A stretch of DNA of 64,000 nt from Gammaproteobacteria bacterium (GTDB taxonomy: Bacteria > Pseudomonadota > Gammaproteobacteria > UBA4575): positions 672,001 through 736,000 of the forward strand of contig CBDCUI010000009.1 in the NCBI GenBank assembly GCA_965222615.1, read 5' to 3'. The position numbers were made by a program, and so were the translations under genes. Shown piece after piece: positions 11,951 through 32,781 of this stretch (position 1 is the stretch's first letter; each line of letters starts with the position of its first letter). Under the pieces are notes generated by a model, which did not search any database, had not been told where the DNA came from, and saw nothing but the letters and a program-made list of their open reading frames with translations.

Positions 11951-12473
11951 GTTAAAACTTCAAACCCCTATTCGCTCCATCTGTTTAACTTACTAAAATA
12001 GTAAGTACGTTAATTATTTTTTTAATGGCCAGCTATTATTATTGTGTCGCTAGTCTCTTCGAGGGCCTTGCACTAGATAATAGACATTTTTACGTGTATT
12101 TACATTATACAAAGTAAGTTTTATGCGTAACTTGTTATATTCTTTATCGCAACATTGCTGAATAGCCAATTACCATCCAGTGACTCCAGGCAAGAAGGCT
12201 AAACTACACCAGCAAACCAATACTTTGCAAGCATTTGTGTATGCGATTTGTTATACATACATAATACCGATTTATATGAAAATTATATGAAAAATTTGGC
12301 TCCTCACTACCAAGATACCAGGATAAATTGCCCTTCGCTTTGATATGACACAGGATAGTGTACTAATTTATCAGGACTGTGCGCTAAGCTTAGTTATTAT
12401 AAGTAAAAACTTTGTTTTTAATGCGCATAATTAAAAGAATTAGAATGAATCTAAACGATCAAAATTTATACAA

Positions 12474-15400
12474 TTACCTCTGTTTTTGCCGGAAATGCGA
12501 TAGGACTTTGATATTGGATCGGTCCGCTAAAATAAATTGTTGTTCAAAATCCACGCTCTTCATTGGCTGGCCTATATAAAAACCTTGAATATAGTCACAG
12601 CCTTCCGCAATCAGTAAATCCTGTTGTTTTTTTGATTCCACACCTTCTGCAAGTACTTTTAAATTTAGGCTTTTTGCCAATGCAATAATGCCTTTTACAA
12701 TTAGCCGGTCTTCTTTATTTTCAGCAATATCGCGTATAAACGCTGCATCAATTTTTAGTAAATCTATCGGAAATTTACGCAAGTAATTTAATGAAGAATA
12801 TCCTGTTCCAAAATCATCAATTGAAAGTTTTACGCCCATTGCCTTCAGTTGATGCAAAATAGAAATCACTTCCTCTGGGCGTTTCATAATGATGCTTTCC
12901 GTTATTTCTAGCTCTAGGCACTCAGGATTGAGCCCAGAATGTGCAAGCACATGGGCAATTTGTGATGCAATGTCACTATTTTCTAGTTGCCTACCAGAAA
13001 GATTTACCGAAACAGGAATTGGCTGATAGCCTTTTTCAATCCATGTTTGCACCTGTACACAAGCACTGATCAAAACCCATAAACCAAGCTCTGAAATAAG
13101 ACCGGTTTCTTCTGCTAGTGGTATAAAATCTGCTGGGCTTATTAAACCTTTTTGAGGGTGATTCCACCGCACCAATGCCTCCATACCGTTTATTTTCATG
13201 GTTTGTAAATCGTATTTTGGTTGGTAATAAACGTCTAATTCATCCCGTTCAATCGAATGACGCAGATCTTGTTCAATTTCTACTTTGTTGGTGACTACAA
13301 CTTCCATCTCTTTCTCATAAAACTGGTAACTGCCACCACGTTCTTTTGCTTTAAACATTGCAGTATCAGCGCGCTTCATTAACACGCCAATATCGTCTCC
13401 ATCCTGTGGATGTAATGAGATCCCAATACTTGCTGTTACATATATATCTTTGCCTGCAAATGAGTAAGGCTCACCTAACTTTTGACATATTTTATCGGCA
13501 ATACTTGCAACAACATTTCGATCCTCAATACCATCTAATACCAAAGTAAATTCATCACCGCCCAAACGCGCAACAGTATCTGCACTACGCACACAACTTA
13601 ATATTCGTTCTGCAACTGATTTTAATAACATATCACCTACATTATGGCCCAATGTATCATTGACATACTTAAACCGATCCAAATCTAGAAACATCACAGC
13701 TAAAATTTCTGAGCTGCGTCGCACTTTCTTCAATAGTTTTTGCATTTGATTGATAAACATTGTGCGATTAGGCAATCCTGTTAACGAATCGTTATAAGCA
13801 AGTTCACGAACGTGAACTTCGGCACGACTAGCTTTCAACAAACGCGAGATGCGTTGACGCATTACGGCAAAGTGAATTGGCTTAGGAATGTAATCTGTAG
13901 CACCTGAATTAAAGGCTTGTTCAATAGATTTTTCATCATCCAATGCAGTAACAATCAGTATTGGCACGTGGCTGCTGCCTCTTAACATGCGAATTTTTTT
14001 ACACGCCTCAAAACCGTTTAGATTTGGCATAAGTGCGTCAAGAATGATGAGGTCAGGCATATTTTTCTCGCAACGCGACACCGCATCTATCCCATCTGAG
14101 ACCGCTTCTATTTCATAGCCATCTTTTACAAGTACGTTTTGCAAAGCTACTCTCATACTTCTGTCATCATCTGCAATTAAAATTCGTTCGGCATCACGAT
14201 GTTGGAGCAAGGTATCGTCTTTAAATAAATTAAGCTCTTTCTTGAGTTCACTATTTACAAGGTCTGCCTCTGTAAATAAGTATTGAACGAGCTCACGCGC
14301 ATTATTATCTATTGAATTATTGCGACCTATATCTTCAAGTTGTTTAGCAATATATGCCAAACGATTTGCACCAAAATTAGAGCTACTACCCTTGATAGTA
14401 TGTGCATAGTGCGTAAGTGTATTTGCATCTTTTTCCATGACGCTCTTTTCAAGTGAACGTAGTAATATAGCCATATCCTCTACATACACTTCCACCATGT
14501 CATTAAATGCATCACCCAAATCTTCTCTCAGCTCAGCAATTACTGCATGATCGATCGCACTGTTATCTTTGTTACCTTCTTCAAGCCTATCTACCAATGT
14601 CTTTTCTATTTCTTCCTCAATGGCTTCATCAGATGGAGCTCCTAACCATCGCTCTAATTTTGCAACCAAGGTTTCCATCTTTAATGGTTTTGAGGCGTAA
14701 TCGCTCATTCCAGCTTGAATACACTTTTCACGCTCTCCCTCTAAGACATTTGCTGTCATTGCAATAATAGGGATTTGTGCAACTTCAGAATCGAACTTGC
14801 GTATTTTTTGCGCGGCTTCATATCCATCCATGCCAGGCATATTGCAGTCCATTAAAACTGCATCATAATGAGTGGTTTCAAGAAGATCCAACGCTTCAAA
14901 TCCATTTGCAGCGATAGAAGATTTACATCCGATACGTTCAAGCATTGCTTGCGCGACTTGCTGATTTGCGCGGTTATCTTCTACTACTAAAATAGTTGCA
15001 TTGAAATTTGGTTTTTTCTTAGCCAGTGTAGCTATACTTGTTCCTTTCCCAACACTTTCAATAACAGGAGAATGAAGCAGTTCTGCAATGCAATCGAATA
15101 CACGTGATTGACGTACTGGCTTTTTAATATATGTGTCAATTTCTCTAAAACGCTCAACAAATGCCTCTGGATTAGTTTGATTAGTCATCAGCACCAGTTT
15201 CATTGGTGCAATGTGTTCGTCTTTAGTGATTTTTCGAATTAATTCGATACCATTTACTTGTGGCATTAATTCATCGATGAATGCCACATCAAATGACTGA
15301 TTAGTCCTCGTGGCTTTGCGTAAAACTTCAACCGTATCAGAAGCGTCAGGTATACAAGTAACAAAAGCGCCCCAATTTTCAAAGGTTTGTTGTAAATTCG

Positions 15401-16991
15401 CTTTAATAATTTCACTATCATCTGCAACAAATATTCGCAAACCTTCCGCAGTAGATTGCTTGGTATCAATTTGACGTACATCGGATAAGCTATCTTTAAA
15501 CGGTATTTCAAACCAGAATATACTGCCCTCACCTAGATGACTTTCTACACCAATTCTACCGTTCATAACTTCAACAAGCTGTCGACAAATCGCAAGACCT
15601 AAGCCAGTTCCACCAAACTTTTTAGTGGTAGAAGCATCGGCTTGTTGAAAAGCTTCAAAAACTTTTGCCTGAGCCTCTTCAGATATGCCTACACCTGTAT
15701 CCGAGACTTCAAACCTCAATCTTAGGATTTTGCCACCATTGGTAACATTTTTTACGCGAAACCCTATCTCGCCTTTATCCGTAAACTTAATGGCATTACC
15801 AGCTAGATTAATAAGTAACTGACGAATTCGACTCGAATCACTATTTACATTTGCAGGCACATCTTTATCTACAACATAGGCAAGATCTAAGTCTTTTGAC
15901 TGTGCTTGACCCGTTAAAATTCCGACAATGTCATCTAAGGTCTCACGAATGTTCAATGGCTCCAGCTCAACATGAGCTTTACCGGAATCGATTTTTGAAA
16001 AATTTAGAATGTCATCAATTAATCTTAATAGTGCATCGCCCGAATCATGTGCCACAGAAACATATTCTTTTTGCTTAGGACTAAGCTCAGTTTCTCTAAG
16101 AATTTCGAGCATTCCTAAGATGCCATTTAACGGTGTACGTAATTCATGACTGACATTTGCCGCAAATTCACCTTTTGCATGCGCATATTCCAAAGCAGCA
16201 CTTCGTGCAGATTCTAATTTATCTTCACGGTCCGCTATGGCGAACATCATAGTGTTAAATGCGCTTTGCATCGCTGTAATATCTTTTGTACCCCAAATTT
16301 TTGAGCGCACATTTAAATCACCTTCTTCTGCAACACGCATTAAGCGCGCAAGATTATTTAAAGGCTTTGTTACTCGATCAGTTATGGCTAATAACAGAAA
16401 TACAAGAATTCCAGACAACAATAGGGATACAAATAAATTAACTTGAAATATGCTTTTCTCAAGCGCATGCAAGGTATCCTTACTGACATGTATTCGTACA
16501 TAACCGAGTAATTCTCTGTCAATAACTTCTTCAATAAATGGTGACTCAGCAATTATGGGATCGTCACCTCTTGCATAGACGGGCGATACAAAATACCAAG
16601 CATTATCTGTTTCTTTTATAAGTTCAGCTTCAAGTGGCCAAACATTTGCATCGTCAGGTATGGTATTCACACCATCTTCTACCAAAGGTTTCTTTTCAAG
16701 ATCATAAACTCCTACGCCATGTACATCAGGGAAATTCTTAATTGCCTGGGCATTTTCTCTAGCACTTTCTTTACTAAGATATAACAAGGCAAGTGTATTC
16801 CGATCTGCAAAATCTCTGGTTATTTGGAATCCTTCTGAAACCAAATTTTGCTCTACTTCCCTTGCTGAAAAAGTTGAGATTAGATATGTAGATATTGCAG
16901 CACTCGCAATAATACCTATCACAAAGGTGGCGATTAGCTGTTCTTTAAAACCACTTGTAAACTTTTTCTTAATGTAATTATAAATTTTCAT
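12474..16991 (-). CDS. Hybrid sensor: TM-periplasmic-TM-HAMP-HisKA-HATPase-REC-REC-Hpt-REC-GGDEF-EAL
   Basis: [26 protein letters not shown], three REC domains (IDELMP, MDCNMP, LDALMP), Hpt AHTIKGSS, RSADxxxRLGGDEF, [15 protein letters not shown]. Confidence 0.93.
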
Positions 16992-16997
16992 AACAAC

Positions 16998-17963
16998 TTA
17001 TTCAGATGGAAATACTGCATCAAAACTTCTAAGTTCTGCGTTAGAGATATTTATCCCCAAGTGCTCTGCAGTTCTTCTATTAAATGCAGTTTGCAAATCC
17101 GTAACCGGTAAAATTTCTTTTTCTCTCACAGAATTTCCATTCAATTCTTCAATTGCCGCCCTACCTAAACTTTGTCCTAACTTAATATTGTCTGGATACA
17201 TGGCGAACAAAACACCTTTATTCACATGGGCAAGGCTACTTGAGAAAACTACGATATCCCGTTTCCACGCTTGATCTAGAATCAGAGACAATAGTGCACG
17301 GTTATCTACTGCAGATGGATCGGGTAGCAGCCAAATGGCTGCATTTTTCATATTAGGACGCTTAAATATTTTGCGATAAAGCTTGGCAGACTCTGAAAGG
17401 CTCTTGGTTGGATATGTAGTTAGCTGTATATCATATTTTGTCGCAGCTGATTGTGCTCTTTTAATCAGCCACTCAGTTTTATTTGGATTATATACAGCAA
17501 CTACCTCCTTGGTTTGAGAGCTTAGTTTTTTTAACTTTTCAAATAATTTATCTGGTGACGGCGCTAACGATATTCCCGTGCGCGCACTTGTGTTCGGTTT
17601 CGGAGTAATTACACCACCCAAAACTACAGGTATATTGCCCTCTAAAGTAGATGTAGCATTTTCACTGCGCACACCAAGCGCAATACATACTTTAATATCA
17701 TTCTTGCTTAGCCATTGATTGAGTTCTTTTGATGAATAATCTTTTTTCAAAACGTAACGCATCGTGCGCCCATTCACTTCTTTTTCAACACCATCTGCCA
17801 TATCGGTGAAAATTTTATTAAACGGTGCGCGCAATTCGGGATATATCACTGCAACAGAAATTGTCGAAGCTTGTGCTGCCAATACTGTGACAATAGATAT
17901 AGAGAGAAAGAATGCAATTGCTATGCATTTTTTTTTCGCTATTTGATATATCTTATTCGCCAT
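16998..17963 (-). CDS. Periplasmic ligand-binding protein (ABC_sub_bind/YfiR-like) with no cognate ABC permease
   Basis: Signal peptide; AIWLLPD, GVLFAMYPD, FNRRTAEHLGI motifs; ends 6 bp before the sensor start. Confidence 0.75.
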   Translation of the reverse strand: MANKIYQIAKKKCIAIAFFLSISIVTVLAAQASTISVAVIYPELRAPFNKIFTDMADGVEKEVNGRTMRYVLKKDYSSKELNQWLSKNDIKVCIALGVRSENATSTLEGNIPVVLGGVITPKPNTSARTGISLAPSPDKLFEKLKKLSSQTKEVVAVYNPNKTEWLIKRAQSAATKYDIQLTTYPTKSLSESAKLYRKIFKRPNMKNAAIWLLPDPSAVDNRALLSLILDQAWKRDIVVFSSSLAHVNKGVLFAMYPDNIKLGQSLGRAAIEELNGNSVREKEILPVTDLQTAFNRRTAEHLGINISNAELRSFDAVFPSE

Positions 17964-17990
17964 TATTTATATTAAGTTGCACCTAAATTG

Positions 17991-19007
17991 TTATGGTTTT
18001 TCTCCAGAAACCACTCCCCAATATCCAAATGTTTTAGTGGACTTCACATTTACAAAACCTGCATCTTTGAGAAATTTACTTAGTTCTTTACCGGAATATT
18101 GCTTACCTTCAGTCCAATTAAGCATCGCCACGTTAGCTGCGGCAGCTATGGCAGGACCGCTTTTATCATCATCAAAAAGCATCTCATGTATTAGAACTTT
18201 CCCTTTTACAGGCAAGGATTTAAAACTTTTTTCGGAAAAAAACTGGCATTTGTCTTTGGGCCAGTCATGAAAAATTTGTGAGTAGAAATGAACATCGGCT
18301 TTAGGGAAGTCATCATTCCAAAAATCTCCTTGCACTACTTTTGCACGATCAGATAAATCATATTGATTAAAGTATTCTTGAGAAACTTCGCACACAGGGG
18401 GAATATCAAAATTTATTCCCTTTAGATGAGTCCAACGATTTAATACACCAATAATATGTGCGCCAGAACCTCCTCCAATATCTAGGAATACTTTATGATT
18501 TGAGAAATCAAAAAACTCTGGCCATGCAGAAGCAGGTGCAATACTTGAACTATGCATTGCTTGTGTAAAATTTCTCGCTATATCGAACTGTTTCTCATGA
18601 CTATCAAATATTGCTTCATCCCCATAAACCTTAGGTTCATTGGATAAAACAGATTGTCTGAGACTTTCAAGAGTATTTAAGGCAAAGATGTCTAGTAAGC
18701 CTCCAAAATAAGTTGGACTATCTTTCAACAAGTATTTCTTTGCATGATCCGTCAATGAATACTTTTGATCAGATAAAGAAATAAAATTCATATTTACCAA
18801 CATTAATAACAACGCTTCAGTTGATCTAGAAGCAATATTAAGTTTTTTGGAAATTTCTTCTAACGATTTCGGGCCATCATTTAATGATGAAAACAAATTT
18901 AATTCATTTGCAAGCATTAATGTCTGATACTTAAATAAGCCTGCAAGGACATCGAAAACAGGTTTATCATCTAAATTTTTCTCATCCTCGACTTGCATTG
19001 AATTCAT
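17991..19007 (-). CDS. SAM-dependent O-methyltransferase (Methyltransf_2 type with dimerisation domain)
   Basis: LDIGGGSG, VVQGDFW, SQIFHDW motifs; N-terminal winged-helix dimerisation region. Confidence 0.88.
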   Translation of the reverse strand: MNSMQVEDEKNLDDKPVFDVLAGLFKYQTLMLANELNLFSSLNDGPKSLEEISKKLNIASRSTEALLLMLVNMNFISLSDQKYSLTDHAKKYLLKDSPTYFGGLLDIFALNTLESLRQSVLSNEPKVYGDEAIFDSHEKQFDIARNFTQAMHSSSIAPASAWPEFFDFSNHKVFLDIGGGSGAHIIGVLNRWTHLKGINFDIPPVCEVSQEYFNQYDLSDRAKVVQGDFWNDDFPKADVHFYSQIFHDWPKDKCQFFSEKSFKSLPVKGKVLIHEMLFDDDKSGPAIAAAANVAMLNWTEGKQYSGKELSKFLKDAGFVNVKSTKTFGYWGVVSGEKP

Positions 19008-19161
19008 AGTTAACTCCTTATCTTATTTGATTAGTTTTATTTTTATAAATTACTGTTATTACTTATGCAAATATTAAAAAGTCACAAGCGCTAATTGCAC
19101 TTTGAATTTCAGTAAGCTCAGGATGCTTAATCAAGATAGAGGAAGTATTACTACGAGACTC

Positions 19162-21237
19162 TTAGAAATTTACTCGCATTTCTCCAAAATAACTTCGTCT
19201 CGCAAGTGGTAGATCATTTGGTATGAATAACCCTGACGAATTGAACATACTTGGCTCATATGGCCTTGAATTGAATAAATTTCTCACAGAAAACGCAAAT
19301 TCCCATCGGTTCTGAAAAGATTTACTACGTACTGTTAAATCAAAAATATCATAATCATCAAGATCATCGGTTCTTGTATCATTATGAACTCTGTCTCGAT
19401 CCATAACAAAATTCCATTGTGGAGCTAAATACCATCCAGGTATAAACTCCCAATTAGCCTTAACATAGAACTGATTTTGAGGAGCATTTCCAGAGTCCTC
19501 ATTAACATCCTCATCTTCTGATTCTTGATAAGCATAGTTTCCTAGTAAATGAAATTTTCTATTTATTTTCCAATCGAATTCAAACTCTAAACCGTAGCCC
19601 TCTTGTTCTCCCACATTTGCTGCAATCGGTGTAAATTCAATAATGTCATCCCACTTGTACTGAAATAGATTTAAACCAAGCTGAAGATTATCTTTTGGCC
19701 GGTAGTCAAATGCTAGTTCAAGCGTCTTTATTTCCTCTGGATCTAGTTCACTGTTACCAACTGCGACAGGATTATTTTGATTCCTAAATTCGGCAAATGA
19801 TGGTGCACGAAATGCTTCACCGTATAACAGTTTAGCAGTCAAATCATGACGTGCGGCCCAAACTAACGCTAAGCGTGGATTCCATGTGTCACCAAAATCA
19901 TTGTAATCGTCATATCTCAGTCCAGCAGTCAGTTCCCAGTCATTACTGAATTGCCAGATATCTTGAATAAATGCAAAAGTATTATTCCGATGCTTCTCTG
20001 GTAGGAATGCAAAAGGCGTATCTGAGACATCAGTAAATGGGATTGGAGCAAATGCAATAAAGTTTCTATGATCTTCAACCTTATAAATATCACTATTAGT
20101 GTATCCCGCACCCACTCTTATTAGATGATCGCTAAAGCCAGAAAATAAACCAGTTACATTAAATCTCCAATGCCTCTCCCAAACTTCAGGATTACCTATT
20201 ACTCCATTCGGAAACGCTCCAAACCCAAAATTAGTACCTGGTGGGAATAAAATAGTATCGTCATCTACCACTTGACTTGTATTTAGATAACTAATTTGCG
20301 CTTGCACATCCCATGTATCAGTAAATTCAGTATTATGATAAGTCAGATCTGCATTCCACCGATCACTTTCATATGTACCATTAGGGTCTAAAGCATCTGC
20401 AACACCTGCCCCAGTTTCAACGTTACGGCGATGTTGAAGACCAGTTCGGAATTTCCAATTTCCTCGTGAAATATCTGCACGAATATCAAAACGCTCTGAA
20501 CCTGTGTTAACAGAATCCGGTGCGAATGAAGTACCAAGCGGGGTGGCTGCATCTGCACCTATATCTTCATCTTGGCCATCTGTATCACGATATTCAGCCA
20601 TAAATGCAACGTCAAATTCACCCCATTTCCCTCCATAAAGAGACCATGCATCGTAAGTATCAAAACTACCTACACGTGAACCAAATTTAGTCCCATCAAT
20701 TTCATTAGCTTGTTTTGTAACAATATTTATAACTCCTGCAAATGCATCAGCACCATATACCGCGGAACCAGGACCTCGTATAACCTCAATTCGTGAAATT
20801 GATTCTACTGGCATACCTCCCCATACCTGACTTCTATCACCAATAAATAGATTATTTACAGATATACCGTTCACCAAAACAAGAACTTGAGGATTAAAAC
20901 CAGTATGTATCCCACGGAATGTGTAAATAGGATTATAAAGAATGCTTGATCGCGAAACATGTAAACCAGGTACAGTCTCAAGTGCTTCATCCAAATCTGT
21001 AGCACCCATTTCTTTAATGTCTTTTGCAGTAATTACAGTCGCAACTGCTGGTGCACGTGAAATCGGTTGTGCCGTTCCTGTTGCTATACTTATAACTTCC
21101 TCATCGCCATAGAGCTCTATTAGTGCTTCTTCATCATAGTCTGCTTGTGCAAAGGAAATTATAAACAAGTTTATAAAGATACTTGAAATAATATTTTTGA
21201 AATTGTTCACAATAAAGACTTGATTAAACATGTTCAT
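19162..21237 (-). CDS. TonB-dependent outer-membrane receptor
   Basis: Plug motifs APAVATVITA, IEVIRGPGSAVYGADAFAGVINIVTK; C-terminal Phe. Start placed at ATG 21237 after SD aaggag. Confidence 0.92.
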   Translation of the reverse strand: MNMFNQVFIVNNFKNIISSIFINLFIISFAQADYDEEALIELYGDEEVISIATGTAQPISRAPAVATVITAKDIKEMGATDLDEALETVPGLHVSRSSILYNPIYTFRGIHTGFNPQVLVLVNGISVNNLFIGDRSQVWGGMPVESISRIEVIRGPGSAVYGADAFAGVINIVTKQANEIDGTKFGSRVGSFDTYDAWSLYGGKWGEFDVAFMAEYRDTDGQDEDIGADAATPLGTSFAPDSVNTGSERFDIRADISRGNWKFRTGLQHRRNVETGAGVADALDPNGTYESDRWNADLTYHNTEFTDTWDVQAQISYLNTSQVVDDDTILFPPGTNFGFGAFPNGVIGNPEVWERHWRFNVTGLFSGFSDHLIRVGAGYTNSDIYKVEDHRNFIAFAPIPFTDVSDTPFAFLPEKHRNNTFAFIQDIWQFSNDWELTAGLRYDDYNDFGDTWNPRLALVWAARHDLTAKLLYGEAFRAPSFAEFRNQNNPVAVGNSELDPEEIKTLELAFDYRPKDNLQLGLNLFQYKWDDIIEFTPIAANVGEQEGYGLEFEFDWKINRKFHLLGNYAYQESEDEDVNEDSGNAPQNQFYVKANWEFIPGWYLAPQWNFVMDRDRVHNDTRTDDLDDYDIFDLTVRSKSFQNRWEFAFSVRNLFNSRPYEPSMFNSSGLFIPNDLPLARRSYFGEMRVNF

Positions 21238-21573
21238 GCGACACTCCTTATGTCTTACATGTATATTTCTTTTCACTTGTTATTTGCGTCAGACAAAACT
21301 CATAAAAAAATAGACGAGTATCCGCCTCATATCCCAAGCGAAACAATACGTAATTAATGCACCTTATTTTAAGGAGTTACGTGAGAAACTAGTCGAAAAT
21401 GTATCGGAAGTTTGATACCGCGGATCTTATAGGTTTAAGCACAAATGGTATTAAATATGGGATGAACGGAATTTTTTCTTTAGGATTAAAAAATTCTGAA
21501 TTTTATATTCGACAAACACGGAAACTTAAATAAAAAATAGACAAACCAAATTAAAAACGACTATTAAGATTAT

Positions 21574-22374
21574 TTACCATTTACGAGCTTCTATGCCTTT
21601 ATAGAATATCCTGTCACAACGTAACGGAAATAATGCTCCTTCCGGTTCCATGCTTGAATCGATATAGCAAGGGAAAAACCCTGCAGTAAAACATAAGGTC
21701 ATAAAATGATAAAATTCACGAGCATTAAGTCCTTGATCTGAAGCTAGCGCTGCATCAACTGCTGCAATATTCATTTTAAAACGGTATCTAGACTTTTTTA
21801 AAATCTCTTCAATTTTTAGAAGCAAGCTTAGATGTTTCCCAGAATGGAATCCCAAATCCTTTGCTAGCTCCAATAAAGGATCTACTCTTTCATCTTTATT
21901 AATTATTGGTCGGCCAAATCCAGCAAGCCATCTTTGGTTCTTAAGTTCGCGTTTGATAATTCCTTCTAAATCTTCACCATTATCAACTTTAACTCTACAA
22001 TTTATTAAAAAATCACAAACTTTTGTTAACGGCACTTGACCATAGTTTCTAGCTTCTGAGACTGCAATAGATGCAGCAATTGCTAAGTTTCCTGTAGATC
22101 TAGTTGTTCCTGCAAGGCTTGCTACTCTATTATTCCAAATTCTCGGTTCAGGAAAGCTAGCCGATATTCTCCAGATTCCCTCAAATAGTTTTCCCTGTTT
22201 TCTATTAAACTCTCTGCCAGTAATTGCAAAAAGTAAAAATTGCATCCAAGTAAATGCCTTAAACTCAGAAAATATATCCCTCCCACGTAATACTACTCTT
22301 TCACCTGGAAACCAGGCGCCCATAGCCGTTACCCAGTTTTCCTCATAATTAATTAGTGGAGATTTTTTGCTCAT
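21574..22374 (-). CDS. Citrate synthase / citryl-CoA lyase-fold protein (divergent)
   Basis: VVLRGRD, LAGFGRP...DERV, MNIAA..AAL correspond to IRGYD, PGFGH..DPR, NVDG..AAI of the fold. Confidence 0.7.
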   Translation of the reverse strand: MSKKSPLINYEENWVTAMGAWFPGERVVLRGRDIFSEFKAFTWMQFLLFAITGREFNRKQGKLFEGIWRISASFPEPRIWNNRVASLAGTTRSTGNLAIAASIAVSEARNYGQVPLTKVCDFLINCRVKVDNGEDLEGIIKRELKNQRWLAGFGRPIINKDERVDPLLELAKDLGFHSGKHLSLLLKIEEILKKSRYRFKMNIAAVDAALASDQGLNAREFYHFMTLCFTAGFFPCYIDSSMEPEGALFPLRCDRIFYKGIEARKW

Positions 22375-22389
22375 TAGAAATATTACTTG

Positions 22390-23202
22390 TTAATTATTTA
22401 TTGGCCCGGGATCATTTTGTAGTTTCAGGGAATCCTCAAAAAAAGGATATTTACGCCAGCCATAATGTTTTTGTTCTAGAGCATGAACGGCTGCACCTGG
22501 CAACCGAAAAAAGAGAAAAAGCATTTCTCCTTGTTCCGTTGTTAATTTCAAATCAACAAATGCAGCAGCAATTACTCCTGTAAATGCTAGAGGCATGTTT
22601 GAATGTTCCTCTAAGGTTTGTCGATTTTTTTTTAGCCAATCAAGATTAGATTTCGGACCTGCTATTTCACATAAAGAAACTAAAATTTGTTGCGTTGGTG
22701 TTGAACAGCTAACCCCATTTGGATCAAATCCCGGAGGATGTTCGATAGGCGTCCATACGTCTATTCGTTCTTCATTTCGGGGATTTTTTATTGCATTTTG
22801 CCAATTCTTTATGTTTTGCCCGCATTCCTCCCAATTCTGCATGGCGAGATATACTTCCCTCGCACCACCATATTGACCTGCACCAACTGCAAGTGCGGCC
22901 ATCAATGCCGATGCTGAGGTAGAACCTCCAACGCCAGCATTCATTGCTGCGCGAACACTGTGGTCTCGTATTCCAGGATTCGCTATTGCAACCGCAATGG
23001 TTTCAAGTAATTTGGCCTGTTCTTTGGTGGGTTTTTCAAGTTTAAATAATAAATATAAGTATTCTACCCAGCTCGCTTTACCTAGAAGATCTCCATACAC
23101 ATCATAACCAGCGCAATAACATTTTTTTGCCGCGAAAGGATTATTCGGCTCTGGTTCTTCGTTCCATATTTTTGTATGGATAACTTCTTTTTTTTTACTC
23201 AC
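22390..23202 (-). CDS. Citrate synthase / citryl-CoA lyase-fold protein (divergent)
   Basis: GYDVYGDLLGK, AGQYGGA, PPGF, RLPGAAVHALEQ (cf. R..G.AAH..EQ). Confidence 0.72.
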   Translation of the reverse strand: MSKKKEVIHTKIWNEEPEPNNPFAAKKCYCAGYDVYGDLLGKASWVEYLYLLFKLEKPTKEQAKLLETIAVAIANPGIRDHSVRAAMNAGVGGSTSASALMAALAVGAGQYGGAREVYLAMQNWEECGQNIKNWQNAIKNPRNEERIDVWTPIEHPPGFDPNGVSCSTPTQQILVSLCEIAGPKSNLDWLKKNRQTLEEHSNMPLAFTGVIAAAFVDLKLTTEQGEMLFLFFRLPGAAVHALEQKHYGWRKYPFFEDSLKLQNDPGPINN

Positions 23203-23223
23203 TTGTACGACACAAGCTCAATT

Positions 23224-25143
23224 TTAAAGATGAAGATGTGGAGTTGGATGCAAAACTTGTATTCTTGTTTGCATAGGTGGGATCTCATTTGAATCAACAT
23301 GGACATCAATTAAAGTAGGACCTTTTCGTGAACATATCTCACCAAAATCCAACTTTAATAAGTCCTCTGGGCTTTTAACAACATGTGAAGGTACATTTAA
23401 AGCCTCTGCCATTTTAGCAAAACTCGCAGAAGGAAGCTGATAACTTGTAAGTTCTACTTGTCCTAGAATCTGTCCTGATTTAACCATGCCTAGTTCTGAA
23501 TCATTTAAAATAATGAATATAACTGTCAGTTCTTCATGTACAGCAACAGAAATTTCCTGGGAAGACATTAAATAACTTCCATCTCCTGTTAAACATACAA
23601 CTGGTGCATTTTTTGCCACTAATGCTGTTCCAATTGAAGCACCAATAGCCCAACCCATAGAAGCAAATTCTATACAGGCTCGAAACAACCCACCTTTGAT
23701 ATTACGTCTACCAGTAATTCTTCTATCATAAGGATGAAGATAATGTATTCCCCATGCAAATGAATTGCCTGTATCGGCCAAATAACGTGTGTTAGGAGGA
23801 AATAAATTTGGCAATTCTTTCATCAACCGCTGTGGTTTAATTGGCGTGGCATTTGAATGATATTTATCAGGCTCATCAAGAGTTAACTGAATTTTAGAAG
23901 CCTCAGAGAAAATTTGATTGCCTTTTTTATTGGATGAATGTTCAAATTGCTTTTTATTGCTACTAGTTTTATTCAGATATTCATTTATCTTCAAAAATAT
24001 ATGCTGAATAGAACCCCTGATATGTAAATTAGCCATCGGTGAACGTGTAAGATTAGTCTCCACCTCATCAATATGCACTAAGCGGCTATTAAGCAATGAA
24101 TGATCCCATGCATTGCTTTCCCATTCACTTAAAGACGACCCAATCACAATGATATTGTCTAAGCTTTTATCATTTAAGGCATCATTAGCACTTTCATGTC
24201 CAGCAAAACCAACAACTCCACGGAATAATGGGTGATAAGGACTTACAAGGCCTTTCCCTAGTGGTGTTGTAAGCAAGGTTGCATTTAAAGTACAAGCAAC
24301 TTCAAGAATTGTACCTATTGCTGGTCCAGCCTCCTCTCCAATAATCATTACTGTTCTATCGCTTTTAACTAGATCGCGACAAAGCAAACCAACCGCATCT
24401 TCATCAATCAAACTAGGTCGCCATAACAAATTAGCCAAATCATAATTAGGTTGTTTTGTGGGTGAATTTGAAGCAAAAACATCCATGGGGAGACTTAAAT
24501 GAACTGGACCTGAAGGTGACTGATGTGCAGTCATAATTGCAGAAACTAATTTTCTTTCAAATTGCTCCACGTGAGAAACTAAAGAATTATAACGTGTACA
24601 ATATTGAAACATTCCTAAAGTATTTATTCCTGTACATGAAGATTCCTGAAACGCACCTTTACCAAATGTCGATAAAGCAGTCTGTGCTGTAATCACAAGG
24701 AGTGGAATATTATTTTCAAAAGCAGATGAAACTCCCGTAATTAAATTTGTAGTTCCTGGTCCTGTGGTTGCACAACACACACCAAGATTACCGCTATTAC
24801 GTGCATAACCATCCGCCATAAATGCTGCACCGGTTTCATGTCTTGCAACGATTGGTTTTAATCCACCTCTGCGTTCGCTTCTTGCCAGCGCATTGTAAAG
24901 TGGCTCGATTGCGCCCCCAGGAATTCCAAACACATACTCAACACCGATTTGCTCTAAATATGAAACAAGCAAATCACCTACTTCATATGTTGGTAATGCT
25001 TCAGATAATTCAACTAGTTTTTCTGGTGTATGTTTTTCTGAACGAATACTAACCACATTGTTTGTGGTTGCCCGATTGAATTTATTCGCTATTTCCAACG
25101 AAATATTTTTCGTTGTACGAATCTCGTCACCGCGAGCTGACAT
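23224..25143 (-). CDS. Thiamine-diphosphate-dependent enzyme (acetolactate synthase-like superfamily)
   Basis: VFGIPGG, ARHETGAAFMADGYAR, TTGPGTTN, ASMGWAIG, GDGSYLM...ILND. Confidence 0.9.
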   Translation of the reverse strand: MSARGDEIRTTKNISLEIANKFNRATTNNVVSIRSEKHTPEKLVELSEALPTYEVGDLLVSYLEQIGVEYVFGIPGGAIEPLYNALARSERRGGLKPIVARHETGAAFMADGYARNSGNLGVCCATTGPGTTNLITGVSSAFENNIPLLVITAQTALSTFGKGAFQESSCTGINTLGMFQYCTRYNSLVSHVEQFERKLVSAIMTAHQSPSGPVHLSLPMDVFASNSPTKQPNYDLANLLWRPSLIDEDAVGLLCRDLVKSDRTVMIIGEEAGPAIGTILEVACTLNATLLTTPLGKGLVSPYHPLFRGVVGFAGHESANDALNDKSLDNIIVIGSSLSEWESNAWDHSLLNSRLVHIDEVETNLTRSPMANLHIRGSIQHIFLKINEYLNKTSSNKKQFEHSSNKKGNQIFSEASKIQLTLDEPDKYHSNATPIKPQRLMKELPNLFPPNTRYLADTGNSFAWGIHYLHPYDRRITGRRNIKGGLFRACIEFASMGWAIGASIGTALVAKNAPVVCLTGDGSYLMSSQEISVAVHEELTVIFIILNDSELGMVKSGQILGQVELTSYQLPSASFAKMAEALNVPSHVVKSPEDLLKLDFGEICSRKGPTLIDVHVDSNEIPPMQTRIQVLHPTPHLHL

Positions 25144-25690
25144 GGTTTTTTCTCCTGGTTAAATACTAGGCAAGGGAAACACACATTTTTTTAATTGTTA
25201 TACACTTATTATTATTTGTGTTAACAACTGTTTACAACGTTAATATCGATAACTTCTTAAGTGTTATACAGAATTTAACATACTTTAGTGGGGTTAATTA
25301 ACCATATATTGAGGAAGGTAAATAACTTAATGATTTAAAAGGTAGAATTTTTTTAAACCAGTTCTCGAAACAGGTAATTTTATTTTGTTAGCTAAAGAAA
25401 TTCGCTAAAAATATGTGTATCTAGTGAAATTTGAAAAAATCATTTATTTCACTCAAGCCCATTAATCACAAAATATTTATGACGCACTTTTCAAGAACGT
25501 ATCATTTGATACTCTAAATAATTGATCACTAAAAATAACTATCTTAAAAAAATATAATGCACTAGCAATTTAATTAGACTTAAAAAAGAAACACAGACAA
25601 AATTAAGTTTATTAAATTTCTCCACATAAGATTTTTCTAGATTATAAAAATGTTCTAGAAAAGAATCAGTTAAAACTGTTGCTTCAATTT

Positions 25691-25733
25691 ATACACTAAA
25701 AACGCATACTAATTGTATGTGTTTAGAGTGTAT
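25691..25733. repeat. Imperfect 19-bp inverted repeat in an AT-rich divergent intergenic region
   Basis: atacactaaaaacgcatac-taatt-gtatgtgtttagagtgtat (16/19 matched). Confidence 0.5.
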
Positions 25734-25920
25734 TAATTAACAATTTATTAATTGGAATCTTTATCTACAAATATAATAATACAAGTCACATATTTTAATA
25801 ATTTCCTTAGTGCTGCTATTGCAATCACATACTATTTTGTCATAGCAAACTACAATCAATCTAATCTAATTAGTAACCCACATAACTTCTAACTATTTAA
25901 AACTTTAGTTCTAAGCGGTA

Positions 25921-27324
25921 ATGATAAAATCAACGTTACACAAAATTGAAATTTTTGTTCTTGCGTTAGTAGTTATCGCAATTTTTGGAGTGACTTATCA
26001 CTACTACTCTCCTTCGTTGTTACAACAAATCAAAAATAATGACGAATTAGTTGTAATAACTCGCAACAGTCCTAGCACTTATTATGTTGGTAACGGTGGG
26101 CCTACAGGTTTTGAATATGAACTTGCACAGTTGTTTGCAGATTATTTAGATGTAAAGCTTGCCTTAATTGTTCAAAGTGAATTCCATCAAATTCTACCAG
26201 CAATTGTCGATGGCAAAGCCCATATCGGTGCGGCTGGAATCACACATACCAGACAACGTGAAGCCTACGTCGACTTCGGCCCTGATTACCTACAAATAAA
26301 TACTCAAGTGACCTATCAAGGAGGCAAGAAGAAGCCAAGATCTATTGAAGATCTGAATGAAAAGCGTGTAGCGGTTATCAAGGGCAGTACGCATGCACAA
26401 ATATTACAAGATCACAAAGAATTCTTTCCGTATTTGAAATGGGATGAGTACTCAGATTTGGATTCTGAAGAGCTAATGCAATTGGTTTCCGAAGGGCTCA
26501 TCGATTACACGATAGCTGATTCCAATGAATTGGCTCTTAACCGTCGTTATTTTCCTAACTTAAGAGTCGGATTTGATATTGGCCGTGAGCAATCCTTGGC
26601 CTGGGCATTTCTAAAAACAGATGATACTTCATTACAAGATTCTGCAAATAAGTTTTTTGCGCAAATCACTAATGATGGCACTCTCACACAATTAAAAGAA
26701 AAGTATTTTGGTCATATAAATGATATTACTCCTTCGGATAGTCACACCTTTATTAAACATGTAAAAGAACGGCTGCCGAAATATGAAAATATTTTTAAAG
26801 AAGCCGCATTAGAGTATGGCATCGATTGGCGTTTTCTTGCTGCCATTAGTTATCAAGAATCACTATGGAATTCAAAAGCAGTTTCTCCTACTGGTGTTAG
26901 GGGACTGATGATGCTTACCAGAAACACTGCTAAGCAATTACAAATTAAAAACAGAATTGATCCTTCAAAAAGTGTATTCGGCGGTACTGAGTATTACCTG
27001 ACAATACGCGATAAAATCCCAAGTCGCATCGAAGACCCAGATCGTACCTGGCTGGCATTAGCAGCATATAATGTGGGTTTTGGCCACCTTGAGGATGCAC
27101 GTATTCTTACCCAACAAGCTGGAGATGATCCTGATCTTTGGTCTGATGTTAGAAAATACTTACCTTTGTTGAGCAAGAAAAAGTGGTATAAAAAAACCCG
27201 TTATGGCTATGCTCGAGGTAATGAACCCGTTGAGTACGTGCAAAATATTCGTAATTATTTTGACCTATTGGTGTGGTTAGAAAACAAAGGTGAGCTACAC
27301 GAAATGCTCGCACAAAGATCTTAA
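25921..27324 (+). CDS. mltF: Membrane-bound lytic murein transglycosylase F
   Basis: N-terminal SBP-like domain (GFEYELA) plus SLT domain (YQESLW, GVRGLMMLT, AAYNVG, GYARG). Confidence 0.93.
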   Translation: MIKSTLHKIEIFVLALVVIAIFGVTYHYYSPSLLQQIKNNDELVVITRNSPSTYYVGNGGPTGFEYELAQLFADYLDVKLALIVQSEFHQILPAIVDGKAHIGAAGITHTRQREAYVDFGPDYLQINTQVTYQGGKKKPRSIEDLNEKRVAVIKGSTHAQILQDHKEFFPYLKWDEYSDLDSEELMQLVSEGLIDYTIADSNELALNRRYFPNLRVGFDIGREQSLAWAFLKTDDTSLQDSANKFFAQITNDGTLTQLKEKYFGHINDITPSDSHTFIKHVKERLPKYENIFKEAALEYGIDWRFLAAISYQESLWNSKAVSPTGVRGLMMLTRNTAKQLQIKNRIDPSKSVFGGTEYYLTIRDKIPSRIEDPDRTWLALAAYNVGFGHLEDARILTQQAGDDPDLWSDVRKYLPLLSKKKWYKKTRYGYARGNEPVEYVQNIRNYFDLLVWLENKGELHEMLAQRS

Positions 27325-27339
27325 CGCAAATCTTTAGCT

Positions 27340-27789
27340 CTATCTGCGTTTACAAAAAAACTGCTGCAGAATCTCTGCACATTCTTCCTGCATTACTCCA
27401 CCGGTAACTTCAACCGTATGGTTGTGTCTAGTATCAGACAATAAATTAAACATTGAACCTGCGGCACCGGTCTTGGGATCAGTCGCGCCAAATACCAATC
27501 TTTTGATTCTGGCATGTAACATAGCCCCTGCACACATTACGCAGGGCTCTAAGGTTACAAACATTGTGGTATCAATTAATCGATAATTATTTAGTGTTTT
27601 AGCTGCATTGCGTAAAGCAACTATTTCAGCATGCGCACTTGGGTCGTTACTACTGATGGGCTGGTTCCAACCCGATCCAATTATTTCATCTCTATAAACG
27701 AGTACTGCACCTACTGGCACTTCCTCTTGAGTTTCTGCCTGTTGTGCCAACTCAAGGGCCTTACACATCCATTGTTCGTCTTTATTCAA
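27340..27789 (-). CDS. tadA: tRNA adenosine(34) deaminase
   Basis: EVPVGAV, HAE, TLEPCVMCAGA. Confidence 0.95.
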   Translation of the reverse strand: MNKDEQWMCKALELAQQAETQEEVPVGAVLVYRDEIIGSGWNQPISSNDPSAHAEIVALRNAAKTLNNYRLIDTTMFVTLEPCVMCAGAMLHARIKRLVFGATDPKTGAAGSMFNLLSDTRHNHTVEVTGGVMQEECAEILQQFFCKRR

Positions 27790-27817
27790 CGTTTAAAAAA
27801 CTGGATATAGAAATGAT

Positions 27818-32694: not shown

Positions 32695-32781
32695 CCCCTC
32701 CATCGCCCAAGGCCATATGTTGCTTGCCAGATGCGGCGTTATCTGGTATCAAAGCGGGCCTCATTTTTAAGTGATAGCTCA

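What the first reader, a model, noticed from the sequence alone, without database searches (positions are those of the whole stretch)
21574..23202. Tandem citrate-synthase-fold proteins that both lack the canonical catalytic His/Asp residues
Seen: ORF 21574-22374 has GFGRP where the fold has GFGH, and NIAA where it has NVD. ORF 22390-23202 has GQYGGA for GPLHGGA, PPGFDP for PGFGH, and AFTG for NVDG. The two are only distantly similar and lie 15 bp apart. Established: His-His-Asp is needed for the enolisation step of citrate synthase. Inference: they form an obligate heterodimer with a rebuilt composite active site and new chemistry (C-C bond formation or cyclisation on the ThDP product), or act as a non-catalytic CoA-ester-binding scaffold.
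Basis: partly seen in the sequence, partly recalled or inferred. Interest (0 to 1): 0.7.

Follow-up and report, generated by a model that had tools for sequence, protein, structure and literature searches.

The report
Triad-less citrate-synthase-fold pair with ThDP enzyme
Two neighbouring genes encode distant relatives of citrate synthase that have lost its catalytic residues, nearly always travel with a thiamine-dependent enzyme and an outer-membrane receptor and sensor set, and probably form a two-part partner of that enzyme whose chemistry is still unknown.

Summary
Both ORFs lie on the minus strand, 15 bp apart, have the citryl-CoA-lyase (CCL)/citrate-synthase fold, and lack the His/His/Asp triad. 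They are ancient paralogues with 18% identity. I call them CclB (22390-23202) and CclA (21574-22374).

They are not a local oddity. In 33 of 34 genomes whose context I read, CclB sits directly upstream of CclA. In 32 of 34 an ALS/BbmA-like ThDP enzyme is in the same stretch. ThDP-CclB fusions (6) and CclB-CclA fusions (5) exist. A complex model supports an A-B dimer: ipSAE 0.78, best control 0.00.

Residues conserved across 36-37 diverse homologues sit in the old active-site loops but are different amino acids. This argues for a rebuilt ligand pocket, not decay.

The trio is usually linked to a TonB-dependent receptor, a periplasmic binding protein and a sensor kinase/c-di-GMP protein. No functional name or paper was found.

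Best reading: an obligate heterodimer partnered with the ThDP carboligase in a small-molecule pathway tied to a dedicated uptake and sensing module. The chemistry is inferred, not shown.

The parts
23224..25143 (-). ThDP-dependent enzyme, 639 aa, ALS/BbmA-like. It is the first gene of the core trio. It keeps the cofactor-activating Glu (RHE103TGA) and the GDG520-522...N547D548 ThDP motif.
   Evidence: three TPP domains, and the motifs read from the sequence. TIGR00118 scores 286.8 bits, below its 538.35 cut-off; best PDB match is BbmA 8x3x (E 6.1e-87, 295.6 bits), against 188.9 bits for the best ALS; the genome has two other ThDP paralogues at 26-27% identity.
22390..23202 (-). CclB, 270 aa. 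It has the CCL/citrate-synthase fold without the triad. It keeps the R233-x-P-G-x3-H240-x2-E243 helix, which I recall as the citrate-synthase Arg401 motif. It has a family-specific N75-P-G77-x-R79 loop. In some lineages it is fused to the C-terminus of the ThDP enzyme.
21574..22374 (-). CclA, 266 aa, an ancient paralogue of CclB without the triad. Conserved polar residues occupy every former active-site loop: R78, W80, N82, Y111, R155, D161, R163, N202, D213, C236, Y258, R264.
19162..21276 (-). TonB-dependent outer-membrane receptor, 704 aa, with Plug and barrel domains. Pfam found no N-terminal signalling domain.
   Evidence: It co-localises with the trio in 26 of 34 genomes examined.
17991..19007 (-). 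Small-molecule O-methyltransferase, 338 aa (PF00891 plus dimerisation domain). It lies inside the module only in the window and its closest relatives.
   Evidence: It is present in L002, L004 and L026, where it lies between CclA and the receptor; that is 3 of the 23 loci.
16998..17963 (-). Periplasmic solute-binding protein, 321 aa (PF04392), with a signal-peptide-like N-terminus by eye. No ABC transporter partner is in the module.
   Evidence: It is the only PF04392 protein in this genome. Its homologue is present in 29 of the 32 sampled genomes that carry Ccl.
12474..16991 (-). Membrane hybrid sensor, 1505 aa: HAMP, HisKA, HATPase, 3 receiver domains, Hpt, GGDEF, EAL.
   Evidence: Homologous sensor kinases or GGDEF proteins flank the binding protein in most loci.
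25144..25920 (.). 777-bp intergenic region with 25% G+C between the divergent mltF and the ThDP gene. The promoter-proximal part holds blocks conserved in four relatives.
   Evidence: No Rfam family and no good Fur-box match (best 13 of 19).

Best explanation
CclA and CclB form an obligate heterodimer built like a citryl-CoA-lyase/citrate-synthase dimer. They are neither a citrate synthase nor a citryl-CoA lyase, because the His/His/Asp triad is gone in both.

The dimer works as a fixed partner of the adjacent ALS/BbmA-like ThDP enzyme. CclB is the subunit that docks to that enzyme. CclA carries most of a rebuilt, arginine-rich pocket (R78, R155, R163, with Y111, D161, N202, D213, C236). That pocket binds an anionic ligand, most likely the carboxylate product or substrate of the ThDP carboligation.

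In my reading the pocket also carries out or guides the next step on that product, such as decarboxylation, dehydration or cyclisation of a tertiary alpha-hydroxy acid, which resembles the citrate centre the fold evolved to hold.

The three-protein core makes or transforms a small molecule, which is O-methylated in this organism's clade. That molecule is functionally tied to a dedicated route: an outer-membrane TonB receptor, then a periplasmic binding protein, then a sensor kinase/c-di-GMP enzyme. Together these would form a production-and-perception module.

Shown here: fold, loss of the triad, paralogy, conserved synteny, co-occurrence, fusions.
Supported by a model only: the A-B interface.
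Inferred: pocket function, chemistry, direction (synthesis rather than breakdown), and the identity of the ligand sensed.
For: (1) Fold and triad loss.

(2) Gene linkage. CclB lies directly upstream of CclA in 33 of 34 genomes whose context was read (23/23, 5/6, 5/5). The one exception, G276, has an ISL3 transposase inside the module. The ThDP gene is in the same stretch in 32 of 34.

(3) Co-occurrence in one sample of about 300 same-class genomes. CclB is found in 29 of 301 and CclA in 31 of 300. 28 genomes have both. Of the four single-hit genomes, two hold only short fragments (G182, G068). In the other two (G215, G298) the partner gene is seen next door once the locus is read.

(4) Fusions. 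There are 6 ThDP-CclB proteins of 858-886 aa (sequences seen). There are 5 proteins of 503-574 aa with a CclB-like N-half and a CclA-like C-half, out of 16 long hits checked among the best 150.

(5) Complex model. The score is 0.78 and the best of 3 controls is 0.00. That mark was reached by 58 of 80 solved complexes and 2 of 110 mismatched pairs; these counts hold only roughly, because my own alignments were used. The runs agree in at least 98% of contacts and the partner's pLDDT is at least 89. The interface is an N-arm/C-arm swap plus helices around residues 95-105.

(6) Conservation. In 36 CclB-type and 37 CclA-type sequences, including other classes and fused forms, the columns at least 90% identical lie mostly in the loops that align with the canonical active-site loops, not only at the modelled interface. 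Both paralogues share a derived Arg at aligned positions (R79 in CclB, R78 in CclA).

(7) Purifying selection. Median identity to the window is 57.4% for CclB and 46.0% for CclA, against 52.3% for the ThDP enzyme.

(8) The genome has a normal gltA (463.8 bits to PF00285) and two other ThDP paralogues, so the trio is an extra system.

(9) The module composition survives three different gene orders: ThDP-B-A-TBDR, ThDP-TBDR-B-A and TBDR-B-A-ThDP-SBP-HK. The binding protein is found in 38 of 300 genomes and in 29 of the 32 Ccl genomes.

(10) A small-molecule methyltransferase is embedded in the module in this clade.
Against: No assay, structure or expression data exist for any member.

Citrate-synthase and CCL homodimers are solved. 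The complex pass may therefore only reflect likeness to them, and homodimers were not modelled for comparison.

The tools do not return coordinates. That the conserved residues line one pocket rests on sequence alignment to 6hxp and to the genome's own GltA. The GltA comparison has low hhalign probability (24.5%), and the CclB profile aligned to GltA only over 31 N-terminal columns.

CclB has few conserved polar residues outside the interface, which fits a structural role as well as a catalytic one.

The module has no exporter and no inner-membrane importer, so direction of flow is open.

8 of 34 genomes lack the receptor in the stretch read. Two of these contigs end right after CclA. Three loci from other classes have cytoplasmic STAND-kinase/LuxR-type regulators or an AMP-binding enzyme instead.

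9 of the 38 genomes with the binding protein have no Ccl hit.

Related genomes are not independent, so the co-occurrence counts overstate the evidence.
Confidence: 0.5

Rival explanations
1. Pure pseudoenzyme scaffold or regulator. The A-B dimer has no catalytic role. It is the oligomerisation hub and/or allosteric subunit of the ThDP enzyme. This would resemble the ACT-domain small subunit of acetohydroxyacid synthase, or the CCL module that forms the core of ATP-citrate lyase. The old pocket would be kept only as an effector-binding or CoA-binding site.
For: The triad is lost in both proteins. ThDP-CclB fusions place the CCL-like domain at the C-terminus of the enzyme, the same position the CCL module has in ATP-citrate lyase (PDB titles). 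CclB is the most conserved protein overall, as expected for a subunit with two interfaces. Several conserved residues lie at the modelled interface: E15, G32 and Y33 of CclB; P250, Y258, G260 and R264 of CclA. No ACT-type small-subunit gene is in the module.
Against: CclA keeps about a dozen conserved polar or charged residues in the former active-site loops, away from the modelled interface. That is more than a binding platform usually needs. An effector-binding pocket would however give the same pattern, so this rival is hard to separate from the best explanation by sequence alone.
Confidence: 0.27
2. Catabolic module. The TonB receptor imports an external compound, and the binding protein and sensor detect it. 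The ThDP enzyme works as a lyase and, with CclAB handling a CoA thioester, breaks the compound down in the cytoplasm.
For: The trio is linked to a TonB receptor in 26 of 34 genomes. No exporter is present. An AMP-binding (acyl-CoA-ligase-type) gene follows CclA in L065 and sits next to CclB in G276. The P-G-F/Y-G loop kept in both proteins is, from recall, the adenine-binding loop for CoA in citrate synthase.
Against: The module has no inner-membrane transporter, so an imported compound has no encoded route to the cytoplasmic enzymes. A tailoring O-methyltransferase is embedded in this clade, which is typical of biosynthesis. The closest solved ThDP relatives are carboligase-type enzymes (BbmA, CsmA, ALS; names only). 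The AMP-binding neighbour appears in only 2 of 34 genomes, and one of these is a rearranged locus.
Confidence: 0.15
3. They are still citryl-CoA lyases or citrate synthases, as public annotation says, and use substitute catalytic residues.
For: Source names for close homologues are 'citryl-CoA lyase' or 'citrate synthase'. CclA keeps the Arg of the DPR motif (R163) and CclB keeps the R-x-P-G-x3-H-x2-E helix.
Against: All three triad residues are absent in both proteins and across both families. Each subunit keeps only one of the substrate-binding arginine motifs. The scores are far under every curated cut-off. PDB entries trap citryl-CoA simply by mutating the Asp (D1026A, D541A; titles). The genome has a canonical gltA. 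The invariable partner is a ThDP enzyme, not a citryl-CoA synthetase.
Confidence: 0.03

Closest known systems
Citryl-CoA lyase of Hydrogenobacter thermophilus (PDB 6hxp) and the CCL core module of ATP-citrate lyase (6hxo, 6hxk, 6qcl and others)
   Same: Same short (about 260 aa) all-helical fold: TM 0.69-0.73, and the best hit for both models. It is also the best sequence hit in the PDB. Dimerisation through terminal arms and central helices appears in the model. In the fused forms the domain sits C-terminal to a larger catalytic module.
   Different: The catalytic His, His and Asp are all replaced. The pair is a heterodimer of 18%-identical paralogues, not a homo-oligomer. The partner is a ThDP enzyme, not a succinyl-CoA-synthetase-like module. 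Both proteins fall below all curated family cut-offs.
Citrate synthase / 2-methylcitrate synthase (PF00285)
   Same: Homologous large and small domain core. CclA keeps G-F-G, D-x-R and the Asn of NVD. CclB keeps the R...G...H..E helix.
   Different: The proteins are about 170 residues shorter. They have no triad and only partial sets of the substrate arginines. The genome's true gltA is elsewhere.
BbmA / CsmA (PDB 8x3x, 8xod, 8x3z) and acetolactate/acetohydroxyacid synthases, as relatives of the partner ThDP enzyme
   Same: Three-domain ThDP architecture, with the cofactor Glu and the GDG...ND motif. BbmA is the best solved match at 295.6 bits.
   Different: I know BbmA and CsmA only as PDB molecule names. 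Their paper was not found in the library, so I do not know their reaction or whether they have CCL-like partners. The window enzyme is below the ALS equivalog cut-offs and has no ACT-type small subunit.
Periplasmic binding protein plus membrane sensor pairs such as LuxP-LuxQ and NspS-MbaA (recalled, not tested)
   Same: A binding protein without its own ABC transporter, encoded next to a membrane sensor kinase or GGDEF-EAL protein.
   Different: The binding-protein family differs (PF04392). It has an obligatory TonB receptor neighbour and is linked to a ThDP/CCL-like enzyme trio. No homology to these systems was tested.

Membership tests
Citrate synthase / citryl-CoA lyase (PF00285; NCBIfam PRK06224 models) | Citrate-synthase/CCL three-dimensional fold | tested here: met
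   AF2 models (pLDDT 89.7 and 78.4) match 6hxp at TM 0.69 and 0.70 (query-normalised), Foldseek E 4.2e-09 and 1.5e-08.
Citrate synthase / citryl-CoA lyase (PF00285; NCBIfam PRK06224 models) | Score at or above the curated family cut-off | tested here: not met
   Pfam: CclB scores 24.2 bits, below 27; CclA has no hit. NCBIfam best hits: CclA 51.8 bits against a cut-off of 245; CclB 64.5 against 212.
Citrate synthase / citryl-CoA lyase (PF00285; NCBIfam PRK06224 models) | First catalytic His (..HGGA.. loop) | tested here: not met
   6hxp AHGGA aligns with Q-Y111-GGA in CclB and N-Y111-G in CclA. The position is variable (Y/L/F/N) across CclB homologues.
Citrate synthase / citryl-CoA lyase (PF00285; NCBIfam PRK06224 models) | Second catalytic His (PGF/YGH loop) | tested here: not met
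   CclA has GFG-R155-P: the His is absent or replaced by Arg, against both 6hxp and the genome's own GltA. CclB has PGF-D160-P, but this stretch aligned poorly.
Citrate synthase / citryl-CoA lyase (PF00285; NCBIfam PRK06224 models) | Catalytic Asp (NVD) | tested here: not met
   CclA has N202-I-A204. CclB has A-F-T208 in the window and A-L/M-S/T in relatives.
Citrate synthase / citryl-CoA lyase (PF00285; NCBIfam PRK06224 models) | Full set of citrate/oxaloacetate-binding arginines in one subunit (Arg329 and Arg401 by pig numbering, recalled) | tested here: not met
   CclA keeps only the D-x-R163 arginine. CclB keeps only R233 of the R..PG..H..E helix.
Citrate synthase / citryl-CoA lyase (PF00285; NCBIfam PRK06224 models) | Enzymatic activity: Claisen condensation or citryl-CoA cleavage | not testable with these tools
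Acetohydroxyacid/acetolactate synthase large subunit (partner ThDP enzyme) | Three TPP-enzyme domains, cofactor Glu, GDG..N(N/D) motif | tested here: met
   PF02776, PF00205 and PF02775 all score above cut-off. E103 and GDG520-522...N547-D548 are read in the sequence.
Acetohydroxyacid/acetolactate synthase large subunit (partner ThDP enzyme) | Score at or above the equivalog cut-off | tested here: not met
   TIGR00118 scores 286.8 bits against 538.35. All 25 ALS-type and other NCBIfam models shown are below cut-off.
Acetohydroxyacid/acetolactate synthase large subunit (partner ThDP enzyme) | Paired with an ACT-domain small regulatory subunit | tested here: not met
   The genes that follow are CclB and CclA in 32 of 34 genomes. 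No other conserved neighbour family was found.

The most novel reading that the evidence does not exclude
The six genes form a self-contained, previously undescribed chemical communication or public-good system of Pseudomonadota. A ThDP carboligase is welded to a neo-functionalised citrate-synthase-fold heterodimer, which would be a new enzyme activity on an old fold. Together they make a small acidic metabolite, O-methylated in this clade. That metabolite is recaptured through its own TonB-dependent receptor, bound by a periplasmic binding protein, and read out by a hybrid kinase that sets c-di-GMP levels.
Probability: 0.25. Interest if true: 0.85.

Novelty: new variant of a known kind. Interest (0 to 1): 0.62.

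Why it matters
First, annotation. Close homologues are named 'citryl-CoA lyase' or 'citrate synthase' in public records. Citryl-CoA lyase is used as a marker of the reductive TCA cycle, so these triad-less proteins could produce false calls of autotrophy in gammaproteobacterial genomes assembled from metagenomes.

Second, enzymology. The citrate-synthase fold is a textbook example of a fold tied to one reaction. Here a conserved heterodimeric branch has replaced every catalytic residue yet keeps its pocket loops under selection. It is also physically coupled, and sometimes fused, to a ThDP enzyme. That makes it either a new activity or a new kind of ThDP-enzyme subunit.

Third, biology. The trio is found in about one in ten sampled genomes of its class (29 of 301), and also in other classes of the phylum. 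It is co-inherited with a TonB receptor, an orphan binding protein and a sensor/c-di-GMP protein. This gives a concrete, testable candidate for an unknown small-molecule uptake and signalling circuit in environmental bacteria.

Tried and rejected
- Literature: ten searches, listings only, no paper read. The searches combined citryl-CoA lyase or citrate-synthase-like with ThDP, TonB or diguanylate cyclase, and also tried BbmA/CsmA, the PDB code and COG2984. None returned a paper on this gene set or on BbmA/CsmA. Several of these queries were noisy (BBMap, '8x3x'). The library lacks most subscription journals, so this is not proof that nothing is in print. No supplementary files were opened.
- Rfam scan of 12000-28000 at E up to 1: only a chance-level IsrM hit, 16.3 bits against a gathering score of 376. 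There is no riboswitch.
- Fur-box scan of the three intergenic regions: best match 13 of 19, no better than the window background of 20 sites at 13 and 10 at 14. There is no sign of iron regulation, but the test is weak.
- Promoter and terminator scans were at or below shuffle expectation.
- G+C of the module is 35-40%, against 40% for the window. There is no sign of recent transfer.
- tblastn of CclB against plasmids found no match.
- Protein-atlas look-ups gave only generic names.
- The TonB receptor and binding protein have no close solved relative that would name a ligand.
- Sequencing runs: no RNA holder was listed.
- hhalign of the CclB profile against the genome's own GltA aligned only 31 N-terminal columns, so the CclB triad mapping rests on 6hxp alone.
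- Two of the five loci (L003, L005) were dropped from the context counts because their contigs end inside CclB.
- Considered and rejected: a canonical CCL of the reductive TCA cycle (no triad, no citryl-CoA synthetase neighbour), and a decaying pseudogene pair (intact frames and 46-57% median identity across families).
Full report
1. What is there

Between 12474 and 25143 the minus strand carries seven tightly spaced genes:
- a 639-aa ThDP enzyme (23224-25143);
- a 270-aa protein that I call CclB (22390-23202, GTG start, 21 nt after the ThDP stop);
- a 266-aa protein that I call CclA (21574-22374, 15 nt after CclB);
- a TonB-dependent receptor (19162-21276), after a 297-bp gap;
- a family-2 O-methyltransferase (17991-19007);
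- a PF04392 periplasmic binding protein (16998-17963);
- a 1505-aa hybrid sensor with HAMP, HisKA, HATPase, three receivers, Hpt, GGDEF and EAL (12474-16991).

Upstream lie a 777-bp intergenic region with 25% G+C and the housekeeping genes mltF, tadA, guaA and guaB.

2. The observation

The finding's coordinates, spacing and all five quoted motifs are correct, but the genes are on the minus strand.

Both proteins are homologues of citryl-CoA lyase (CCL) and citrate synthase:
- NCBIfam CCL models hit them at 51.8 and 64.5 bits, far under the cut-offs of 245 and 212.
- Pfam Citrate_synt hits only CclB, at 24.2 bits against a threshold of 27.
- Family profiles hit PDB 6hxp at E 3.3e-16 and 4.6e-18.
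- AF2 models match the CCL structures with TM about 0.7.

The alignments to 6hxp, and for CclA to the genome's own GltA, give the following:
- CclA has Y111-G for AHGG, R155 for the His of GFGH, and A204 for the Asp of NVD.
- CclB has Y111, D160 and T208 at these positions. The second-His stretch of CclB aligned poorly, and the CclB profile aligned to GltA over only 31 columns.

None of these positions is His/His/Asp anywhere in alignments of 23 CclB and 21 CclA sequences.

That the triad is needed is established knowledge, which I recall from pig citrate synthase (His274, His320, Asp375). The PDB titles show citryl-CoA being trapped in D1026A and D541A mutants.

The two proteins are true but ancient paralogues: hhalign probability 98.1%, E 7e-14, 18% identity.

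3. They are a fixed pair and a fixed trio

In a sample of the window's class, CclB was found in 29 of 301 genomes at E up to 1e-20. CclA was found in 31 of 300 at E up to 1e-10 (one genome was not scored). 28 genomes have both.
- The single CclB-only genome holds a 71-residue fragment.
- One CclA-only genome holds a 59-residue fragment.
- The other two CclA-only genomes (G215, G298) have a divergent or broken CclB next to CclA when the locus is read.

These tallies include one genome (G039) flagged unpublished. The binding-protein tally below also includes G141.

I read the context in 34 genomes:
- 3 of the 5 loci (two short contigs were dropped);
- 20 regions;
- 6 further genomes;
- 5 genomes of other classes of the phylum.

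CclB lies immediately upstream of CclA on the same strand in 33 of 34. The gap is often a 4-bp overlap. The ThDP gene is in the same stretch in 32 of 34.

The exceptions look like decay, not independence:
- G276 has an ISL3 transposase inside the module, with CclB on another contig.
- In G178 only the first 72 codons of CclA remain beside CclB, and the rest lies about 517 kb away.
- In G044 the ThDP enzyme, CclA and the receptor are all fragmented together.

All-against-all clustering of ORFs in 23 loci found no other conserved neighbour family beyond the ThDP enzyme, CclB, CclA, receptor, binding protein and sensor.

4. Physical association

A search of longer proteins found six ThDP-CclB fusions of 858-886 aa. 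These were all 6 hits among 2021 candidates. Their sequences show a linker of roughly 25-35 residues, as I read it.

A profile of CclA against 1.84 billion representatives found 1028, 550 and 170 proteins at E up to 1e-3, 1e-10 and 1e-30. I checked 16 long hits among the best 150. Five (503-574 aa) have a CclB-like N-half and a CclA-like C-half, in the same order as the genes. One has two CclA-like halves.

The one complex job, with CclB and CclA given as alignments, returned 'supports binding':
- score 0.78, with the best of 3 controls at 0.00;
- that mark was reached by 58 of 80 solved complexes and 2 of 110 mismatched pairs, which holds only roughly because my own alignments were used;
- the runs agree in at least 98% of contacts, and the partner's pLDDT is at least 89.

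The interface pairs the N-terminal arm of each chain with the C-terminal arm of the other. It also pairs helices 95-105 of CclB with 93-107 of CclA, as in citrate-synthase dimers. Such homodimers are solved, so the pass may be memory of that likeness. Homodimers could not be run for comparison.

5. Dead or rebuilt?

I enlarged the alignments to 36 CclB-type and 37 CclA-type sequences, including other classes and fusion halves. The columns at least 90% identical are:
- CclA: G19, G31, T52, G53, P75, R78, W80, N82, Y111, G112, G152, R155, P156, D161, R163, N202, D213, G232, C236, L248 (Phe in most homologues), P250, Y258, G260, R264.
- CclB: E15, P22, G32, Y33, L51, P58, N75, G77, R79, A85, A86, G90, G92, L100, L104, G109, G113, G158, F159, A212, D217, L228, P235, G236, H240, E243, P253.

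Set against the 6hxp and GltA alignments, the CclA residues occupy every canonical active-site loop:
- the loop aligned to DHGIAPP;
- the HGGA loop;
- the GFGH loop;
- the DPR arginine, kept as R163;
- the Asn of NVD;
- the G..H helix, where the His is C236.

CclB keeps the R233-PG-H240-E243 helix and shares with CclA a derived Arg (R79, aligned with R78).

Only a minority of these residues are at the modelled interface: E15, G32 and Y33 of CclB; P250, Y258, G260 and R264 of CclA.

Median identity to the window is 57.4% for CclB, 52.3% for the ThDP enzyme and 46.0% for CclA.

This pattern fits a re-used ligand pocket, with arginines pointing to an anionic ligand, better than a relic. It cannot separate catalysis from effector binding.

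6. The partner enzyme and the rest of the module

The ThDP enzyme has all three TPP domains, the cofactor Glu (E103) and GDG...ND. It is under all ALS-type cut-offs.

Its best solved relatives are BbmA and CsmA (295.6 and 248.3 bits), against 188.9 bits for the best ALS. I know these only as PDB names. The genome has two other ThDP paralogues at 26-27% identity and a normal gltA.

Public names for homologues are only 'thiamine pyrophosphate-binding protein', 'acetolactate synthase', 'citryl-CoA lyase' and 'citrate synthase'.

The receptor accompanies the trio in 26 of 34 genomes. This holds through three different gene orders: ThDP-B-A-TBDR, ThDP-TBDR-B-A and TBDR-B-A-ThDP-SBP-HK.

The binding protein is the only PF04392 protein in this genome. 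Its homologues occur in 38 of 300 sampled genomes, including 29 of the 32 genomes with a Ccl hit. Nine genomes have it without Ccl.

Three loci of other classes instead carry a STAND Ser/Thr-kinase/GAF/histidine-kinase giant with a LuxR-type regulator, or an AMP-binding enzyme.

The methyltransferase is confined to the window's clade but stays inside the module at two different positions. Its solved relatives are small-molecule methyltransferases.

No exporter or inner-membrane importer is conserved.

7. Reading

The data best fit an obligate CclA-CclB heterodimer that is a standing partner of a ThDP carboligase, in a small-molecule pathway coupled to a dedicated outer-membrane uptake and periplasmic sensing route.

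My preferred mechanism is that CclA's pocket binds and processes the tertiary alpha-hydroxy-acid product of the carboligase, while CclB docks the dimer to the enzyme. This is inference.

The main rival is a purely structural or regulatory pseudoenzyme pair. A catabolic reading and the annotated CCL function are less likely, for the reasons given under rivals.

8. Novelty and limits

No description of this pair, trio or module was found in ten literature searches, of which I saw listings only. The library misses most subscription journals, and the BbmA/CsmA paper could not be found, so a published relative may exist.

Taxonomic counts come from samples of related genomes and are not independent. 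Everything about 3-D placement rests on alignments and on models whose coordinates I could not inspect.

Noticed in passing
window 32731-33669 (+): This 312-aa ORF has an N-terminal ~150 residues that are an extremely Lys/Ala/Pro-rich repeat (KKKAAPKK-type, histone-H1-like). Its C-terminus carries a DksA/TraR-type C4 zinc-finger motif (C-x2-C...C-x2-C) by eye. The antisense ORF at 32739-33284 is probably spurious.
   Followed up: no
window 25144-25920; L001:5191-5903, L002:4943-5942, L004:5208-5963, L026:5889-6600: The intergenic region upstream of the ThDP gene is long (about 710-1000 bp) in all five close relatives and has 25% G+C in the window. Conserved blocks such as AATCATTAAGTTA and repeated TTGTTGTAA / TTGTTAA(C/T)AC words lie in the part nearest the ThDP start. 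They could be regulator sites. No Rfam family matched.
   Followed up: partly
L044 (G044:C1:3407000-3425000): In a complete one-contig genome the ThDP gene, CclA and the TonB receptor are all broken into several ORFs, while the binding protein and sensor look intact. The module appears to decay as a unit.
   Followed up: partly
L040 and L050 (G178:C1): CclA is split. A 72-codon N-terminal remnant stays next to CclB and the ThDP gene. Residues about 49-266 are encoded about 517 kb away. No receptor is nearby. This is probably a rearrangement.
   Followed up: partly
L048, L049 (G276): An ISL3-family transposase and a cohesin/TSP3-repeat ORF lie between the TonB receptor and CclA. CclB sits on another contig, beside an AMP-binding enzyme, a FadB-like enzyme and a rhodanese.
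   Followed up: partly
L064:1654-6969 (-), L066:9892-15075 (+), L065:331-2292 (-): In other classes of the phylum the trio is flanked by giant STAND-type proteins (Ser/Thr kinase, AAA_16, GAF, histidine kinase) with a LuxR-type response regulator, in place of the receptor, binding protein and sensor set. Only the L064 and L065 proteins were scanned against Pfam; the L066 ORF was judged by its size and position.
   Followed up: partly
window 21312-21327 (-): A terminator-like hairpin with a T-run lies about 35 nt before the TonB-receptor start, in the 297-bp gap after CclA. It may separate the trio's transcript from the receptor's. The scan as a whole was at chance level.
   Followed up: no
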